Shown here: positions 1 to 4,502 of the stretch, in pieces
Position numbering within the stretch: the stretch's first letter is position 1
How the letters are laid out: each line of letters opens with the position of its first letter
NCBI GenBank assembly: GCA_019704295.1
Contig: AP024596.1
Coordinates: 1,952,001 to 2,016,000 of the forward strand
Direction: 5' to 3'
Source: Sulfolobales archaeon HS-7
Lineage (GTDB): Archaea; Thermoproteota; Thermoprotei_A; Sulfolobales; Sulfolobaceae
Length of the DNA: 64,000 bases
Translations under genes and position numbers: made by a program
Notes under the pieces: generated by a model
What the model saw: only the letters and a program-made list of their open reading frames with translations
What the model was told of the DNA's origin: nothing
Database searches by the model: none

Positions 1-889
1 GGGATATCTCCTTTAGTGAATAGATATCCAGGACTTTTATTAAAGTAGGATCAATCTCATTTGGTACAGGTTTCATTCGAAACGTTGATTTTGGTATTGA
101 AATATCTATATTAAAGAAAGGAGCAATAAATACTGTAGGAATTTCTATCATTTGTTTATATGTATAATTAAATTTTAGTGTACGGTCAGTATCAAGACTT
201 ATTATAAGAACGTCTTTATTTGATAAATTATTCAGCATAAAAGTATAATTTTTTCTAATTATTTTATTTTTGGAATCAAATTTATGGAACTTAAAAGCTA
301 GATTATATACTCCTTCGTCCAATAGTCTTGTGACAAACTCACTAAACCTATTGTCATCTAAATCAAGAACTGGAATAGCATTTAACCTTTCGTCTATGGC
401 CGAGATCTCTTTATATATTTTCAAATAATCATCTGGGTTTAACCTTAAATATGGAACAAAGATATCTGAAAAACCACAGTCTTTTAATACATTTACGCCT
501 TCTAACAAAAGATCTTTCTTATTTACCTCAGATAGATTATCTACATCTTTCTTTGGAACATATAAGTAAGCAGCGTTGACTTTAGTATTTTCTGTCTGAC
601 TATCTAGAAACTCTTGAGAAATACGCTGAAGTCCGCTAGCTGGCGCTCCTTTTCTAAGGATATCATGTATACGTATTAAATCAAGTAAAGGACTATTCAA
701 TACTCTAAATACGTCAGGAATATAGATTCTTGATGGTATATCGGCTTTCGCATTTAGATACGTACTAGTTATTGCTGCTTCTGGAGTAACGAAATTACCT
801 TTATCAGTATTTACTTCTAAAATTCTCACTTCTATGTTAGAATATTCAGATGAGTTCACAAAATCTCTTAATTTTATTGACTTAATCAT
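1..889 (-). CDS. Uncharacterised protein, possible degenerate TGT-like TIM barrel; C-terminus runs off the window (>=296 aa)
   Basis: Not in the ORF track. Hand translation from ATG 889: MIKSIKLRDFVNSSEYSNIEVRILEVNTDKGNFVTPEAAITS...DCGFSDIFVPY...LNAIPVLD. No stop seen before the window edge. Starts 14 nt after the stop of 904..1434. Fold assignment is weak. Confidence 0.75.
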   Translation of the reverse strand, partial: MIKSIKLRDFVNSSEYSNIEVRILEVNTDKGNFVTPEAAITSTYLNAKADIPSRIYIPDVFRVLNSPLLDLIRIHDILRKGAPASGLQRISQEFLDSQTENTKVNAAYLYVPKKDVDNLSEVNKKDLLLEGVNVLKDCGFSDIFVPYLRLNPDDYLKIYKEISAIDERLNAIPVLDLDDNRFSEFVTRLLDEGVYNLAFKFHKFDSKNKIIRKNYTFMLNNLSNKDVLIISLDTDRTLKFNYTYKQMIEIPTVFIAPFFNIDISIPKSTFRMKPVPNEIDPTLIKVLDIYSLKEIS

Positions 890-903
890 AGTAGTTTCAC
901 CAA

Positions 904-1434
904 CTAAAGCTCGTTAATTTTGTCCCATATAGTCTCTATTTTCGCTTCAGATTTGGTTGTGTAAGGCTTCCATTCTTCGTATGTATATTTAATATAACCA
1001 CGTTTAAGCCTAGATTGTTCTAGGCCCATCCTAATCTCCTTAAGTCTATTTACATCTTCCTTTTTCAATAACTTCAGTAACTCTTTTGCCTTCCTCTTCC
1101 CTTTTTCAGTCAATTTGTAAATTTGCCTTTCCCTTAATGTACCTTCAATATCAATTTTGTTTGCGTACCACAATAACTCCAAGTTATACAATACAAAATC
1201 ACTGTAAGGCCCATACTTATAGCCGTAAAATTCCGGGTCCTCTATCTGGTAACCTAACAACTTAAGCTCATTCCACATGTTAAAAACTAACTTAGTGAGG
1301 AAAGTCCTTCCCTTTATGGGTATATCTGGTTCTAGACCAAGGATTATTAGTAATAACTCGTCTAGAGTAAAATCGTCGAGATCATCCCTACACTCATGTT
1401 CGTCTTTTATGTATACGGTATCATCCCTAATCAA
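904..1434 (-). CDS. Panacea/SocA (DUF4065)/YwgA-like winged-helix protein, putative antitoxin
   Basis: Motifs GRTFLTKLVF (cf. GRTKLQKLxF), FYGYKYGPYS (cf. FxxYxYGPYS) and wing YKLTEKG. Confidence 0.7.
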   Translation of the reverse strand: MIRDDTVYIKDEHECRDDLDDFTLDELLLIILGLEPDIPIKGRTFLTKLVFNMWNELKLLGYQIEDPEFYGYKYGPYSDFVLYNLELLWYANKIDIEGTLRERQIYKLTEKGKRKAKELLKLLKKEDVNRLKEIRMGLEQSRLKRGYIKYTYEEWKPYTTKSEAKIETIWDKINEL

Positions 1435-1969
1435 TTAGTATTACCCCCTTAACTTCCTTTTCAAAAGTATTGTTATCTAAAATTGTATCAATTAGCACTC
1501 TGTGTTTTTGCCCTTGATTATCATGATAATCTAGGAATATGTGAATATGCGTTACTTTCCTACCAATATTTTTGAGCCAAGCTAACGGAGAAGCAACAGG
1601 TATAACCTCAGCTACTAGATGTTCAATATATGCATTTTGATCTAAATCTCTTCCACATAAACCATATTCTGTTAGCTTCCTTAAAATCTTTTTAGACTCT
1701 TTCGAACCTTTACTATATAACCTATTATATTGGATTCTCTTACCATCTTCCGCAACTTTCAAGAGTATGAATTTCTTGCCACATTTAAGACATTTGAAAA
1801 CGCTAGGCTTATTTCCTGTTTTTCTCTTTTCCTTAGTACTGTACTGTCCACCTACACTTCCAAGCTTCAGGATATTCAGATCCGCATGAAACTCTTTCTT
1901 TACTTCCTTAGATAACGTCTCATTAGCATCTATCTCGTTACCACAATATGGACATACTATCTTACTCAT
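1427..1969 (-). CDS. Zn-ribbon-containing hypothetical protein
   Basis: 180 aa, CPYC...CLKC; overlaps the downstream gene by 8 nt; GAGGT RBS-like sequence upstream. Confidence 0.7.
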   Translation of the reverse strand: MSKIVCPYCGNEIDANETLSKEVKKEFHADLNILKLGSVGGQYSTKEKRKTGNKPSVFKCLKCGKKFILLKVAEDGKRIQYNRLYSKGSKESKKILRKLTEYGLCGRDLDQNAYIEHLVAEVIPVASPLAWLKNIGRKVTHIHIFLDYHDNQGQKHRVLIDTILDNNTFEKEVKGVILID

Positions 1970-2090
1970 TGAAGGTACCTCTTTTCGCCATGGGAGCCAA
2001 AGCCCTAAAATACACGCCGGCTAAAATAATAATGTAAGTATGATGGAATTTTGGATATCCCTTCAATGGAGTGGGCATAACATATTCCAT
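1962..2090 (-). CDS. Putative 42-aa leader/small protein
   Basis: MEYVMPTPLKGYPKFHHTYIIILAGVYFRALAPMAKRGTFNE*; stop overlaps the start region of the next gene; TTTTAA box about 25 nt upstream. Confidence 0.3.
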   Translation of the reverse strand: MEYVMPTPLKGYPKFHHTYIIILAGVYFRALAPMAKRGTFNE

Positions 2091-2238
2091 AAACTGTTAT
2101 CGTTACTCCTTAAAACTTTTGTTTATTATTTTACAGATATATAGTAAAATTTTTACATTAAGTTTGATAAATATTTACCTGAAGTCTACCGGAGGCTTAG
2201 CTTTCACTCATTATTTTGCTTTCAAAACTCTTAGTAGT

Positions 2239-2399
2239 GGGCCGTTCCGCGTTCATTGTGAATTCAGTTTATTTAGAAAAAAAGAATGAATTTAATTGAA
2301 TGCTATCATATGGACTAGTGGAGATTGGCACTTAACAATTTCCTTTATTTAATCCCTATTTGCCATAATTACAATTCGCAATGGAAACCTGAATCACCC
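2239..2399 (+). mobile_element. MITE-like repeat family A (~163 bp), copy 1
   Basis: GGGCCGTTC...ATTGTGAATT / AATTCGCAAT...TGAATCACCC termini; colinear with copies at 62506 and 63777. Confidence 0.8.
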
Positions 2400-2433
2400 G
2401 CATATTATCTTAATCTATAGAATACTAATAAAA

Positions 2434-4254
2434 CTACATTTTTTCAACTTTATCAATACCTAACGCATTAAACGAGTTTCCTAGCACAGTCTTAACCCCC
2501 TTAACTAGGTAAAGTCTACTCGTCTTTTTCCTCTCATCCTCTTCTTGGAGAATCCTCTCCCTAGAGTACCAACTATTGAATAAATCTGCGAGGTTCTTTA
2601 TATAAATTGTTAAATTTTCTAATTGTAACGACTCATATGTAATTTTTAAAATATACGGAAACTTTGCAATAGAAATAAGTATGTCCCTCTTTGTATTAAC
2701 GATATCCTTAGTATCAGCTAGCTCTAAGTTTAACTCCCCGGTAAACTTCGACATTATACTATTAGCCCTTACGTAAGTATATTGTAAATACGGTCCGCTG
2801 TTCTCATTCAGATCCGTAACTCTGTTCACGCTGAAGCTTAACGGCTTAGTAGCTGAAGCGCTCAGTATAGCGTACCTTATTGCAGATCTGGCTAGACTTG
2901 CCGATGTGGAAATATCTCCGTTCTTCTCCAAAATTTTCTGTTTAACAACGCTCTCGACTGCGTTAAAGAGTTCGTCAATAGTGACGTATCTTCCCCTCCT
3001 TCCACTCATCTTAGTTCCCTCCAAATTAACCATAGCGTATGAGTAATGATATAGGTTTTCGGCAATTCTTGTAAATCCTAAAAGGTAAAGTGCAGCTCTT
3101 AACTGAATTTGAGGAATTGTCTGTTCTTCGGCGATGACATTTATAACTAAATCCGAATTTTTGAACTTCTCCAGCGTATAGGCGATATCCCTTATTGTAT
3201 ATAAAGAGGTTCCGTCTTTCCTCGTAACTACTAATGGCGGTATCTTTAAACCTCTGGGTATCTTTAAAATATCTTTCACGTCTTCGGGTAGCTTCTCGAA
3301 AGATATGGCCTTAGCATCCTTATGATAAATTACGTGAGGCGAGCTGAGTATTTCATCAATTATTTTCTTAACTTTTCCACTCCACAATAACTCGCTTTCG
3401 TAATCGTAAAAGTTAAACGACACCCCTAAATTGCTAAGAGTTTCGTTAAATCCGTTTAGTATTTCATTAACAAACTTCCTTATCCTCTCCTTATACTCGT
3501 TATTTCCCTCTTCATATTCTTTGAGGATTCTATTTATTTCTGCTTCTGGATCCGCGTCTTTTTCTATTTCCTCCTTAAGTTTCCAGAATTCGGGAAATCT
3601 TTCGGATAGCTCTTTTGCTATGGCTACTAACTCATCTATTTTTCCCTTATCATTTGGGGTTTTAGATAGCTTAACTATATCAACTATTGTACTGGTCGAG
3701 GCGTACACCAATCCGTAGAAATAGTCTGCTTTAATAGACGGTAGAGGAGATGGCCAATGGAGTTTTTCTAATCCATAAGCTAGTACTCCTACTTGCCTAC
3801 CAGAATCGTTAACGTAGAATCTAGTTGTGACTTCGTCACCCATATAACTGAGAAATCTAGCTAATGCGTCGCCTATTACCGCGTTCCTTAGCGCACCGAT
3901 ATGTAATGGATGTATAGGGTTTGCACTAGTATGTTCTACTACAGTCCTCCTTCCAGTTTTTTTCTCAGGGAATCCATACCTATCGTCTAATTGGGAAAAG
4001 AGAGAACTAAATAGATTATCTACGTTTATTACTGCGTTATAGTATATTCCTACTTTATTTATTTCTTTAATATATTTTTTCCCTATAATTTTGTCAGGTG
4101 CGTTAGCACCTTTTAGCGGAGTTGATAAATCGCCAAACTCCTTCCGAGGGGGTTCGGATATTTTCTTATAAATTATTTCCCGCGACAGACCTGTATATCC
4201 TTCTAGAATTTCCGACATCTCTAACATCGCTTCTTCAATTAAGTCCTGACTCAT
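2434..4254 (-). CDS. argS: Arginyl-tRNA synthetase
   Basis: VVEHTSANPIHPLHIG (HIGH), KMSGRRG (KMSKS-like), SGPYLQYTYVR; likely start ATG 4254. Confidence 0.96.
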   Translation of the reverse strand: MSQDLIEEAMLEMSEILEGYTGLSREIIYKKISEPPRKEFGDLSTPLKGANAPDKIIGKKYIKEINKVGIYYNAVINVDNLFSSLFSQLDDRYGFPEKKTGRRTVVEHTSANPIHPLHIGALRNAVIGDALARFLSYMGDEVTTRFYVNDSGRQVGVLAYGLEKLHWPSPLPSIKADYFYGLVYASTSTIVDIVKLSKTPNDKGKIDELVAIAKELSERFPEFWKLKEEIEKDADPEAEINRILKEYEEGNNEYKERIRKFVNEILNGFNETLSNLGVSFNFYDYESELLWSGKVKKIIDEILSSPHVIYHKDAKAISFEKLPEDVKDILKIPRGLKIPPLVVTRKDGTSLYTIRDIAYTLEKFKNSDLVINVIAEEQTIPQIQLRAALYLLGFTRIAENLYHYSYAMVNLEGTKMSGRRGRYVTIDELFNAVESVVKQKILEKNGDISTSASLARSAIRYAILSASATKPLSFSVNRVTDLNENSGPYLQYTYVRANSIMSKFTGELNLELADTKDIVNTKRDILISIAKFPYILKITYESLQLENLTIYIKNLADLFNSWYSRERILQEEDERKKTSRLYLVKGVKTVLGNSFNALGIDKVEKM

Positions 4255-4310
4255 AACCAACTCACAATCCTTAAAAGGAATAATAGGCGAATAGTATATA
4301 ATGATTTTCA

Positions 4311-4502
4311 ATGAAAAAGAAAATCGATATACTAATAATAGAGGACTTTACTGGAGAAAGGATTGATGTTCCAGACCATCAGCTTCTTGATACCGGAGAC
4401 TCGGAGATAATAATAACGAAAATCCATATCCCAGACTGGTTAGGGGAGTCGACAGAAACCGGTATTCACGTTAATATCGTGAAGGACGTTGTCGAAACGT
4501 AA
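4311..4502 (+). CDS. Small hypothetical protein
   Basis: 63-aa ORF divergent from argS, overlapping the next gene. Confidence 0.55.
   Translation: MKKKIDILIIEDFTGERIDVPDHQLLDTGDSEIIITKIHIPDWLGESTETGIHVNIVKDVVET

What the first reader, a model, noticed from the sequence alone, without database searches (positions are those of the whole stretch)
1..2090. Candidate new defence/toxin-antitoxin operon: leader ORF + Zn-ribbon + Panacea/SocA-like wHTH + TGT-like protein
Seen: four co-oriented, tightly coupled ORFs (two overlaps and a 14-nt gap), AT-rich by eye, separated from core argS by a MITE. Known: Panacea/SocA (DUF4065) domains act as antitoxins/adaptors for very diverse toxins, and TGT-fold paralogs such as DpdA put 7-deazaguanines into DNA in defence islands. 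Inference: a Panacea-controlled effector module, or a nucleic-acid base-exchange system. I recognise no described system with this composition. The rest of the locus lies outside the window.
Basis: partly seen in the sequence, partly recalled or inferred. Interest (0 to 1): 0.8.

Follow-up and report, generated by a model that had tools for sequence, protein, structure and literature searches.

The report
Mobile archaeal zinc-ribbon/Panacea-like/TGT-fold gene triad
Three tightly packed genes beside argS form a rare, horizontally moving archaeal cassette that joins a zinc-ribbon protein and an antitoxin-like (Panacea-type) protein to a very diverged relative of the base-swapping enzyme tRNA-guanine transglycosylase; it is probably an undescribed toxin-antitoxin or antiviral module, but no activity has been tested.

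Summary
The ORFs are real. The minus strand carries A (180 aa, window 1427-1969), B (176 aa, 904-1434) and C (410 aa, 889 to 343 bases left of the window), with 8-nt and 8-nt overlaps and a 14-nt gap. GC is 32.6% against a 39.6% genome. A roughly 40-copy MITE separates the genes from argS.

- A has four invariant Cys, so it is a zinc ribbon.
- B is a distant Panacea/SocA homologue (profile-profile probability 97.8%), but falls below the Pfam cut-off.
- C folds as a tRNA-guanine transglycosylase (Z 19 against 14 or less for other TIM barrels). It keeps an invariant Asp at the nucleophile position and lacks the DSG Asp and the zinc cysteines.

The 42-aa 'leader' ORF is not conserved.

The B-C pair, mostly preceded by a zinc-ribbon A gene, recurs in 18 of 401 genomes of another class of the same phylum and on three metagenome contigs. 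It was found in none of 36 same-family genomes. It sits next to transposases, restriction-modification genes and toxin-antitoxin genes.

No PADLOC, Pfam or NCBIfam model covers it, and none of the papers I could search describes it. Function (toxin-antitoxin or defence) is inferred only. This genome's C copy has lost several family-conserved residues.

Earlier AI follow-ups of this scan described Panacea-like plus TGT-fold cassettes in other genomes, one with a zinc-ribbon protein; whether they are the same family was not shown.

The parts
1..889 (-). Gene C, the 5' two thirds (residues 1-296 of 410). The gene ends 343 bases left of the window (L009:14657-15889). It is a TGT-fold TIM-barrel protein with an N-terminal beta-hairpin plus 'TP' motif, an invariant Asp262 and a C-terminal helical extension.
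   Evidence: ORF and translation. GGTGA Shine-Dalgarno motif. AF2 model pLDDT 79.4, pTM 0.82. VIA Z 19.1 to TGT 3unt. Foldseek top 50 all TGT. 24-member family alignment A6.
904..1434 (-). Gene B, 176 aa, a Panacea/SocA-like protein with motif EDPxFxxYxYGPYS followed by a PadR-like winged-helix stretch.
   Evidence: hhalign against 22 Pfam-validated archaeal Panacea proteins: probability 97.8%, E 9.4e-13. 15 of 18 family members hit PADLOC PDC-M19A and 7 of 18 hit DarG. Lies immediately upstream of C in 15 of 16 close loci.
1427..1969 (-). Gene A, 180 aa, basic (pI 9.3). It is a zinc ribbon whose two CxxC pairs (C6, C9 / C60, C63) are separated by about 50 residues, followed by a small C-terminal domain ('IHI' motif). 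No transmembrane segment.
   Evidence: Four invariant Cys in 16 homologues. Only generic zinc-finger hits. pI and hydropathy. GAGGT Shine-Dalgarno motif.
1962..2090 (-). 42-aa 'leader' ORF overlapping the start of A. Probably not a gene; more likely part of the 5' untranslated or promoter region.
   Evidence: No family hit. A comparable ORF of 40 aa or more overlaps the A start in only 2 of 16 related loci.
2091..2238 (-). AT-rich upstream region with TATA-like motifs (TTTTAA about 25 nt upstream of the ATG at 2090; TTTTACTATATAT further up). Putative promoter of the operon.
   Evidence: Sequence read directly. Inference only.
2239..2400 (.). MITE-like repeat of about 160 bp between the cassette and argS.
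   Evidence: About 40 copies at 82-89% identity in the genome. A diverged inverted copy lies on the other side of the cassette at L009:14231-14365 (69% identity) and abuts a second repeat family at L009:14382-14546.

Best explanation
This is one copy of a horizontally mobile, three-gene archaeal conflict module with the gene order regulator-antitoxin-toxin, of the toxin-antitoxin or abortive-defence type.

Shown:
- A is a zinc-ribbon protein.
- B is a distant homologue of the Panacea/SocA antitoxin domain.
- C has the fold of tRNA-guanine transglycosylases, including their N-terminal hairpin and C-terminal helix.
- C has an invariant Asp aligned with the TGT nucleophile Asp, and lacks the DSG general-acid Asp and the CxCxxC zinc site.
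- The genes travel together through unrelated archaeal lineages. They sit in low-GC, repeat-, transposase- and defence-rich spots.

Inferred:
- B binds and silences a partner, as Panacea antitoxins do.
- C is the effector. It would act on tRNA or DNA by excising or exchanging a base through Asp262.
- A, which is basic, is a nucleic-acid-binding regulator or sensor.
- Loss or titration of B, for example on virus infection, would free C and stop growth.

The copy in this genome has lost eight of the sixteen most conserved family residues, including both conserved His. It may therefore be attenuated or changed in function.
For: Conserved order A-B-C:
- Three metagenome contigs.
- G392, G372, G262, G325 and G213.
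- 18 of 401 genomes of another class carry C. B lies directly upstream in 15 of 16 close loci, and a CxxC...CxxC ORF lies upstream of B in most.

Patchy spread and foreign composition:
- C was not found in 60 relatives of G000, 36 of them in the same family.
- GC is in the lowest 1.4% of genome windows.
- MITEs lie on both sides.
- In 7 of 8 same-family genomes a tRNA-Arg abuts argS where G000 has the cassette.

Neighbours elsewhere: DDE transposases, a type IIG restriction-modification methylase, a Panacea-like plus HD-domain pair, HEPN/MNT and PIN/MazE genes.

B is Panacea-like:
- hhalign probability 97.8%, score 85 against 10 +/- 1.8 for shuffles.
- The B profile directly hits Pfam-validated Panacea proteins.
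- B members hit PADLOC PDC-M19A and DarG.
- Panacea proteins neutralise many unrelated toxins by binding them (PMC8832971).

C has the TGT fold:
- Structure searches.
- hhalign against ArcTGT: global P 1.3e-4, score 24.3 against 2.4 +/- 2.3 for shuffles.
- D262 is present in 24 of 24 members and aligns with the GVD nucleophile.

TGT-fold proteins already act in defence: DpdA (PMC10164549), Cap10 (10.1101/2025.04.06.647259) and TIM-B/P4 Beta (10.64898/2026.10.19.760177).

In G011 an A homologue precedes a B homologue fused to a P-loop NTPase instead of C, so the third module can be exchanged.
Against: - No experiment of any kind supports toxicity, neutralisation or defence.
- No component is an obvious toxin. 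In known systems both Panacea proteins and TGT-fold proteins (Cap10, P4 Beta) are usually the negative regulators, so C may regulate rather than kill, and A may be the effector.
- C lacks the TGT general-acid Asp and zinc site. The G000 copy also lacks the conserved S251, H254 and H368, so catalysis is uncertain.
- C has no hit in PADLOC, so there is no link to a validated system.
- B is below the Pfam Panacea cut-off.
- The defence-island context rests on a handful of loci.
Confidence: 0.5

Rival explanations
1. C is not the toxin. It is a TGT-fold negative regulator or sensor, as Cap10 is for CdnD and as P4 Beta (TIM-B) is for Gop. B and C together hold the small basic zinc-ribbon protein A, or a host target, in check. 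A is the exchangeable effector.
For: Cap10 is a TGT-family protein without the zinc site, remodelled to bind and inactivate a partner protein. TIM-B proteins are predicted constitutive negative regulators of diverse effectors. C matches Cap10 at Z 13.2 and non-catalytic QTRT2 at Z 18.2. The G000 copy has lost conserved polar residues. Unchecked earlier notes of this scan describe Panacea-like plus TGT-fold pairs with swappable PIN, nuclease or membrane third genes.
Against: A has no recognisable toxin domain and no transmembrane segment. D262 is invariant in 24 of 24 members, and a set of polar residues is conserved across the family, which suggests catalysis or ligand binding. C shows no sequence or profile similarity to TIM-B.
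Confidence: 0.22
2. The triad is a nucleic-acid modification system. C exchanges a base in DNA or tRNA, for example inserting the host's preQ0, as DpdA does. The zinc-ribbon protein A and the winged-helix protein B serve as targeting subunits, giving protection from restriction or marking self.
For: C has the TGT fold and an Asp at the nucleophile position. DpdA matches at Z 13.1. The host has QueC and ArcTGT, so preQ0 should be available. A and C are basic, pI 9.3 and 9.1. B has a PadR-like winged-helix segment.
Against: The cassette holds no DpdB, DpdC, QueC-like, nuclease or other restriction partner in any locus examined. The general-acid Asp and the zinc site used by TGT and ArcTGT are absent. 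B is homologous to an antitoxin domain rather than to known DNA-modification accessory proteins.
Confidence: 0.15
3. The G000 copy is a decaying remnant of a once-mobile cassette with no current function.
For: P0001 departs from the family consensus at 8 of the 16 best-conserved positions. Degraded repeats and a frameshifted HTH gene fragment lie beside it. The only close-ish relative, P0005, is 27% identical.
Against: All three frames are intact and full length, with Shine-Dalgarno motifs and overlapping stop and start codons. P0005 shares the same substitutions, so they mark a sub-branch rather than random decay.
Confidence: 0.08

Closest known systems
PanA-PanT (Panacea/DUF4065, SocA) type II toxin-antitoxin systems (Kurata et al. 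2022, PMC8832971)
   Same: B is a profile-level homologue of the Panacea domain, with the GP(V/Y) motif in the aligned position. The operon is compact and translationally coupled, two to three genes long, patchy and mobile. The antitoxin-like gene lies directly upstream of a larger enzyme-like gene.
   Different: B does not reach the Pfam cut-off. The partner has a TGT fold, and I found no mention of one in the paper's main text or in its held supplements, one of which is truncated. A constant zinc-ribbon gene accompanies the pair. No toxicity or neutralisation has been shown.
tRNA-guanine transglycosylases (bacterial TGT, archaeal ArcTGT, eukaryotic QTRT1/QTRT2; Pfam PF01702)
   Same: The whole-domain fold matches, including the N-terminal hairpin and the C-terminal helix (Z 18-19 over about 305 residues). 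Shared motifs are 'R..EI.T..G...TP', 'G.D' with the invariant Asp, and the 'VHE....EF' helix, which aligns with the TGT 'HNL...EI' helix.
   Different: The Pfam model does not detect C. C has no DSG Asp and no CxCxxC zinc site. It is about 10% identical. It is not a single-copy housekeeping gene: the host has its own ArcTGT elsewhere.
TGT-fold proteins of defence systems: DpdA (Dpd), Cap10 (type IV CBASS), TIM-B / phage P4 Beta (PF14350)
   Same: These are diverged members of the same fold, recruited into conflict systems. Cap10 also lacks the zinc site and binds a partner protein. TIM-B is predicted to restrain a linked toxin.
   Different: C matches them less well than it matches canonical TGT (Z 13.1-13.2 against 18-19). 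PF14350 finds nothing in 301 genomes of the phylum, and the profiles do not align. None of their partners (DpdB/DpdC, Cap9 and CD-NTase, Gop/cII) is present.
PADLOC candidate PDC-M19 (gene A) and the C-terminal region of DarG
   Same: 15 of 18 B-family members hit PDC-M19A (best E 2.4e-13) and 7 of 18 hit the DarG model. The B-type domain is therefore already seen in defence or candidate-defence proteins.
   Different: No C-family member hits any PADLOC model, so the triad as a system is not in PADLOC 2.0.

Membership tests
tRNA-guanine transglycosylase family (PF01702) | (beta/alpha)8 barrel with N-terminal beta-hairpin lid and C-terminal helical extension | tested here: met
   AF2 model pLDDT 79.4. 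VIA Z 19.1 (3unt, 307 residues), 18.7 (1iq8) and 18.2 (6fv5), against 13.8 or less for other barrels. Foldseek top 50 all TGT.
tRNA-guanine transglycosylase family (PF01702) | Detected by the Pfam model above its cut-off | tested here: not met
   No PF01702 hit for P0001 at E<=10 or for 8 members at E<=0.1. The whole-genome scan finds only the host's ArcTGT.
tRNA-guanine transglycosylase family (PF01702) | Catalytic nucleophile Asp (Z. mobilis D280 / ArcTGT D249, in the G-x-D motif) | tested here: met
   D262 is present in 24 of 24 members and aligns with GVD of ArcTGT in the global profile alignment. That alignment has low HH probability (27%), so the equivalence is provisional.
tRNA-guanine transglycosylase family (PF01702) | General acid/base Asp of the DSG(G/A) motif | tested here: not met
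   The aligned strand reads '(I/L)xxxQP' with no conserved Asp.
tRNA-guanine transglycosylase family (PF01702) | Zinc site CxCxxC...H | tested here: not met
   The family has no conserved Cys. The aligned region (270-295) is variable and of low confidence. Only the His is kept (20 of 24), and it is Val in P0001.
SocA/Panacea (PF13274, PanA antitoxins) | Pfam model above the gathering score (25.7 bits) | tested here: not met
   P0002 scores 14.4 bits, E 0.073. Only 1 of 9 members hits at all. There is no PF13274 match in G000.
SocA/Panacea (PF13274, PanA antitoxins) | Homology to bona fide Panacea domains, including the conserved GPV-type motif | tested here: met
   hhalign of A8 against 22 Pfam-validated archaeal Panacea proteins gives probability 97.8%, E 9.4e-13 over 123 columns. 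'kfGPYS' aligns with 'W.yGP'. The B HMM hits 16 of those proteins.
SocA/Panacea (PF13274, PanA antitoxins) | Neutralises an adjacent toxin by direct binding | not testable with these tools
   Needs toxicity and rescue assays and pull-downs.
Dpd DNA 7-deazaguanine modification system | DpdA together with DpdB (ParB-like ATPase), DpdC and restriction genes | tested here: not met
   Only A, B and C are conserved. No such neighbours occur in the loci examined. DpdA matches at Z 13.1, below canonical TGT.
TIM-B / P4 Beta_protein (PF14350) | Detected by PF14350 or alignable to P4 Beta homologues | tested here: not met
   0 of 301 genomes, G000 included. That scan had no positive control, because the model rang in none of the 14 control genomes. 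hhalign of A6 against P4 Beta and its plasmid homologues scores 16.7, P 0.3, which is background.
Type IV CBASS (Cap9/Cap10/CD-NTase) | A CD-NTase and a QueC-like Cap9 in the operon | tested here: not met
   Neither is in the cassette. The host's QueC lies elsewhere, at G000:30767-31390.

The most novel reading that the evidence does not exclude
C is the first TGT-fold toxin. It would be a base-excising or base-exchanging enzyme that uses the retained nucleophile Asp to damage or re-code tRNA or DNA. A Panacea-type antitoxin (B) holds it in check, and a zinc-ribbon protein (A) tunes it. Together they would be a new class of archaeal abortive-infection or toxin-antitoxin system.
Probability: 0.3. 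Interest if true: 0.8.

Novelty: new variant of a known kind. Interest (0 to 1): 0.62.

Why it matters
Archaeal virus defence and toxin-antitoxin biology is far less charted than bacterial. This is a compact three-gene cassette that no family library or searchable paper covers, and its parts are now assigned: a zinc ribbon, a Panacea-like protein and a TGT fold. It adds a fourth independent recruitment of the deazaguanine-transglycosylase fold into conflict systems, after DpdA, Cap10 and TIM-B. It also extends the reach of Panacea-type partners to a new fold. The cassette is small enough to test directly in Sulfolobales genetics. If C acts on nucleic acids, it would show a new way of using base exchange as a weapon or a switch.

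Tried and rejected
- Word-indexed homologue searches of A, B and C in 5.8 billion proteins returned only the query itself. Full phmmer of C was needed to find two relatives.
- The search for related loci with alignments in genome, metagenome and viral collections found nothing.
- Sequence profiles against the PDB found nothing for C and only generic zinc fingers or PadR for A and B.
- The first AF2 model of C (8 sequences, pLDDT 57) gave only generic TIM-barrel matches. It was superseded by the 24-sequence model.
- The BFVD viral fold search gave only weak hits.
- Complex prediction on A+C+B with B as partner gave 'no answer': score 0.75, but a control with C replaced scored 0.56. It is not used as evidence either way.
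- A search for a tRNA-Arg att duplicate or an integrase beside the cassette found none. There is only a frameshifted HTH fragment. An 'integrated element at tRNA-Arg' is therefore not shown.
- TIM-B (PF14350) membership was rejected.
- The 42-aa leader ORF was rejected as a conserved gene.
Full report
**Observation.** The minus strand of window 1-2090 holds four co-oriented ORFs: 1962-2090 (42 aa), 1427-1969 (A, 180 aa), 904-1434 (B, 176 aa, TTG start) and 2-889 (C, open at the window edge).
- The window is G000:C1:1952001-2016000 in a 2.15-Mb single-contig genome.
- Fetching the DNA to the left (L009) shows that C is complete at 410 aa (L009:14657-15889).
- Nothing else follows on that strand. 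Next come two MITE-type repeats, a frameshifted HTH fragment and tRNA-Arg(CCG) on the opposite strand.
- Junctions are an 8-nt overlap, an 8-nt overlap and a 14-nt gap.
- A, B and C are preceded by GAGGT, GGGGT and GGTGA at Shine-Dalgarno distance.
- GC of A-B-C is 32.6%. The genome mean is 39.6% +/- 3.0, and only 1.4% of same-size windows are as low.
- The element at 2239-2400 has about 40 copies. A 69%-identical inverted copy and a second repeat family lie on the other flank.

**Is it a conserved unit?** Family libraries gave nothing significant for any protein (Pfam, NCBIfam and PADLOC). Word-indexed searches of 5.8 billion proteins returned only the queries themselves.
- An exhaustive phmmer of C found two relatives, P0005 (E 4e-14) and P0006 (E 3.8e-4).
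- Their contigs carry the same three genes in the same order and with the same sizes. The A and B homologues align: B shares EDPxFxxYxYGPYS and A shares CPYCG...C..C.
- A profile of B found strong matches in other genomes of the phylum. Five of them (G392, G372, G262, G325, G213) have B-C or A-B-C.
- A profile of C then found the gene in 18 of 401 genomes of another class: 17 of 224 in one family and 1 of 78 in another.
- B lies directly upstream of C in 15 of 16 close loci. A CxxC...CxxC ORF lies upstream of B in most.
- C was not found in 60 relatives of G000, 36 of them in the same family.
- A more diverged C-like branch (G641, G092) has no B next to it.

**Genomic context.**
- DDE transposases flank the triad in G392, and one flanks the A plus B-NTPase variant in G011.
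- In G372 a Panacea-like plus HD-domain pair and a type IIG restriction-modification methylase sit next to it.
- The metagenome contig L011 carries HEPN/MNT and PIN/MazE pairs.
- In 7 of 8 same-family genomes a tRNA-Arg abuts the 3' end of argS on the same strand. G000 has a MITE, the triad and more MITEs there, and its nearest tRNA-Arg is inverted 3.6 kb away.

Taken together this is a rare, patchy, compositionally foreign and therefore horizontally moving cassette.

**Protein C.** A first model from 8 sequences was poor (pLDDT 57) and matched TIM barrels in general. With 24 family members (A6) the model reached pLDDT 79.4 and pTM 0.82.
- In Foldseek against the PDB, all 50 top matches are TGT or QTRT1 (E 7e-6 to 6e-5).
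- In the independent VIA search, TGT 3unt scores Z 19.1 (307 aligned residues, model 1-393), ArcTGT 1iq8 scores 18.7 and QTRT2 6fv5 scores 18.2. All other barrels score 13.8 or less. Cap10 scores 13.2 and DpdA 13.1.
- A profile-profile alignment with 12 crenarchaeal ArcTGTs gives global P 1.3e-4. The score is 24.3, against 2.4 +/- 2.3 (maximum 9.0) for 60 column shuffles and 3.7 for the reversed profile. The local score is 29.9 against 15.3 +/- 2.3.
- That alignment pairs 'R..EI.T..G...TP' with the TGT 'RIG.L.T..G..ETP'. It pairs 'PF.G.D' with 'ALGVD', the nucleophile Asp. It pairs 'RVHE...S..EF' with 'HNL...EI..AI.EGRL.EY', the helix carrying the fourth zinc ligand.
- The DSG Asp and the CxCxxC cysteines have no counterpart.
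- D262 is invariant (24 of 24). T35, P36, P146, R236, S251, H254, F258, H368 and E369 are present in 20-23 of 24 members.
- The G000 protein itself carries R38A, Q110Y, P111V, S251P, H254F, H368V, S373A and E376K relative to the consensus. Its nearest relative P0005 shares the loss of both His residues.
- PF01702 does not detect C. PF14350 (TIM-B/P4 Beta) finds nothing in 301 genomes of the phylum, although that scan had no positive control. A6 does not align with P4 Beta and its plasmid homologues.
- No PADLOC model hits any of the 24 members.

**Protein B.** Pfam gives only a sub-threshold Panacea hit (14.4 bits).
- The B profile weakly matched many proteins of about 150-250 aa in 67 of 401 genomes of the phylum. 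A dozen of those places are above-threshold PF13274 matches.
- The 18-member B HMM hits 16 Pfam-validated Panacea ORFs.
- hhalign of A8 against an alignment of 22 such proteins gives probability 97.8%, E 9.4e-13 and score 85, against 10.2 +/- 1.8 for shuffles. It covers B residues 21-154 and places GPYS on the Panacea GP(V) motif (the motif is described in PMC8832971).
- 15 of 18 B members hit PADLOC PDC-M19A and 7 of 18 hit DarG.
- B is therefore a diverged branch of the Panacea/SocA superfamily but not a member by Pfam's rule.
- G000 has two further paralogues of the broader family.

**Protein A.** Four Cys are invariant in 16 homologues: two CxxC pairs about 50 residues apart. Matches are to generic zinc fingers and ribbons only. 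A is basic (pI 9.3) and has no hydrophobic span.

In G011 an A homologue precedes a B homologue that is fused to a P-loop NTPase, with no C. The A-B pair can therefore take a different third module.

**Leader ORF.** A comparable ORF overlaps the A start in only 2 of 16 loci. I treat it as part of the 5' region, which has TATA-like motifs.

**Mechanism.** What is shown is the identity of the three folds or domains, their strict linkage and their mobility. The rest is inference.
- *Best reading (about 0.5).* This is a toxin-antitoxin or abortive-defence module with the classical order regulator-antitoxin-toxin. B is the neutraliser, as Panacea proteins are (PMC8832971). C is a base-excising or base-exchanging effector that uses Asp262. 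A is a nucleic-acid-binding regulator or sensor.
- *Rival 1 (about 0.22).* C is a regulator like Cap10 (10.1101/2025.04.06.647259) or TIM-B (10.64898/2026.10.19.760177), and A is the effector.
- *Rival 2 (about 0.15).* The triad is a Dpd-like modification system. The host does have QueC and ArcTGT, so preQ0 should be at hand. However, no DpdB, DpdC or restriction partner is ever linked.
- *Rival 3 (about 0.08).* The G000 copy is a decaying remnant.

The complex prediction gave no verdict and is not used.

**Comparison and novelty.** The Panacea survey does not mention a transglycosylase partner in its main text or in its held supplements, one of which is truncated. The TIM-B preprint lists many effectors but no Panacea or zinc-ribbon triad, and it concerns a different sequence family. 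A BREX-related system uses a canonical TGT homologue.

I therefore class the triad as a new variant of a known kind: a Panacea-type partnered module with a new, TGT-fold partner.

Earlier AI follow-ups of this scan reported Panacea-like plus TGT-fold cassettes in other genomes. One of them, e1-2992398, also included a zinc-ribbon protein. Sequence look-ups did not link them to the loci used here, so whether they are the same family is unverified.

Noticed in passing
window 2239-2400; L009:14231-14380 and L009:14382-14546: There are two MITE-like repeat families. The first is about 160 bp with about 40 genomic copies at 82-89% identity. The second is about 160 bp with 30 or more copies. Together they bracket the cassette. 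Further copies lie inside the window's range, for example near G000:2002828-2002992, 2004242-2004422, 1971374 and 1997486.
   Followed up: partly
L009:13900-14090 (just left of the window): A frameshifted helix-turn-helix gene fragment ('...LGLTQAIKQLGVGRTTLYRTCERLE') lies between tRNA-Arg(CCG) and the MITEs. It is 68% similar to G000:1487463-1487676. It is probably a relic of an insertion sequence or resolvase.
   Followed up: partly
window 2434-4311 (argS) and loci L068-L075: In 7 of 8 same-family genomes a tRNA-Arg (GCG, TCG or CCG) lies within about 10 nt of the argS stop codon on the same strand. In G000 this pairing is broken and tRNA-Arg(CCG) is inverted 3.6 kb away.
   Followed up: partly
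L028:9658-11472 and L028:11622-14675 (genome G372): Next to that genome's triad sits a second Panacea/YwgA-like gene coupled to an HD-domain (SAMHD1/dGTPase-like) protein, followed by a 1017-aa type IIG (Eco57I/MmeI-like) restriction-modification methylase. This is a defence-island setting.
   Followed up: partly
L027:7432-9568 (genome G011, same family as G000): An A-type zinc-ribbon gene is followed by a 503-aa protein whose N-terminal 160 residues are B-like. The rest carries a P-loop (GPPASGKS) NTPase. There is no C gene, and a DDE transposase lies beside it.
   Followed up: partly
G000:1253419-1253898 and G000:2056919-2057380 (outside the window): The same genome has two more small Panacea/YwgA-like paralogues (159 and 153 aa, motif F/FGPYS). 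Each has different neighbours, and Pfam recognises neither.
   Followed up: no
L055:304-2754 (genome G663) and L060/L061/L063 (G641, G092): In one high-GC genome the C homologue lies in an 816-aa open frame. This could be an N-terminal fusion or an ORF-calling artefact. A more diverged C-like branch in two other genomes has no B gene next to it.
   Followed up: no
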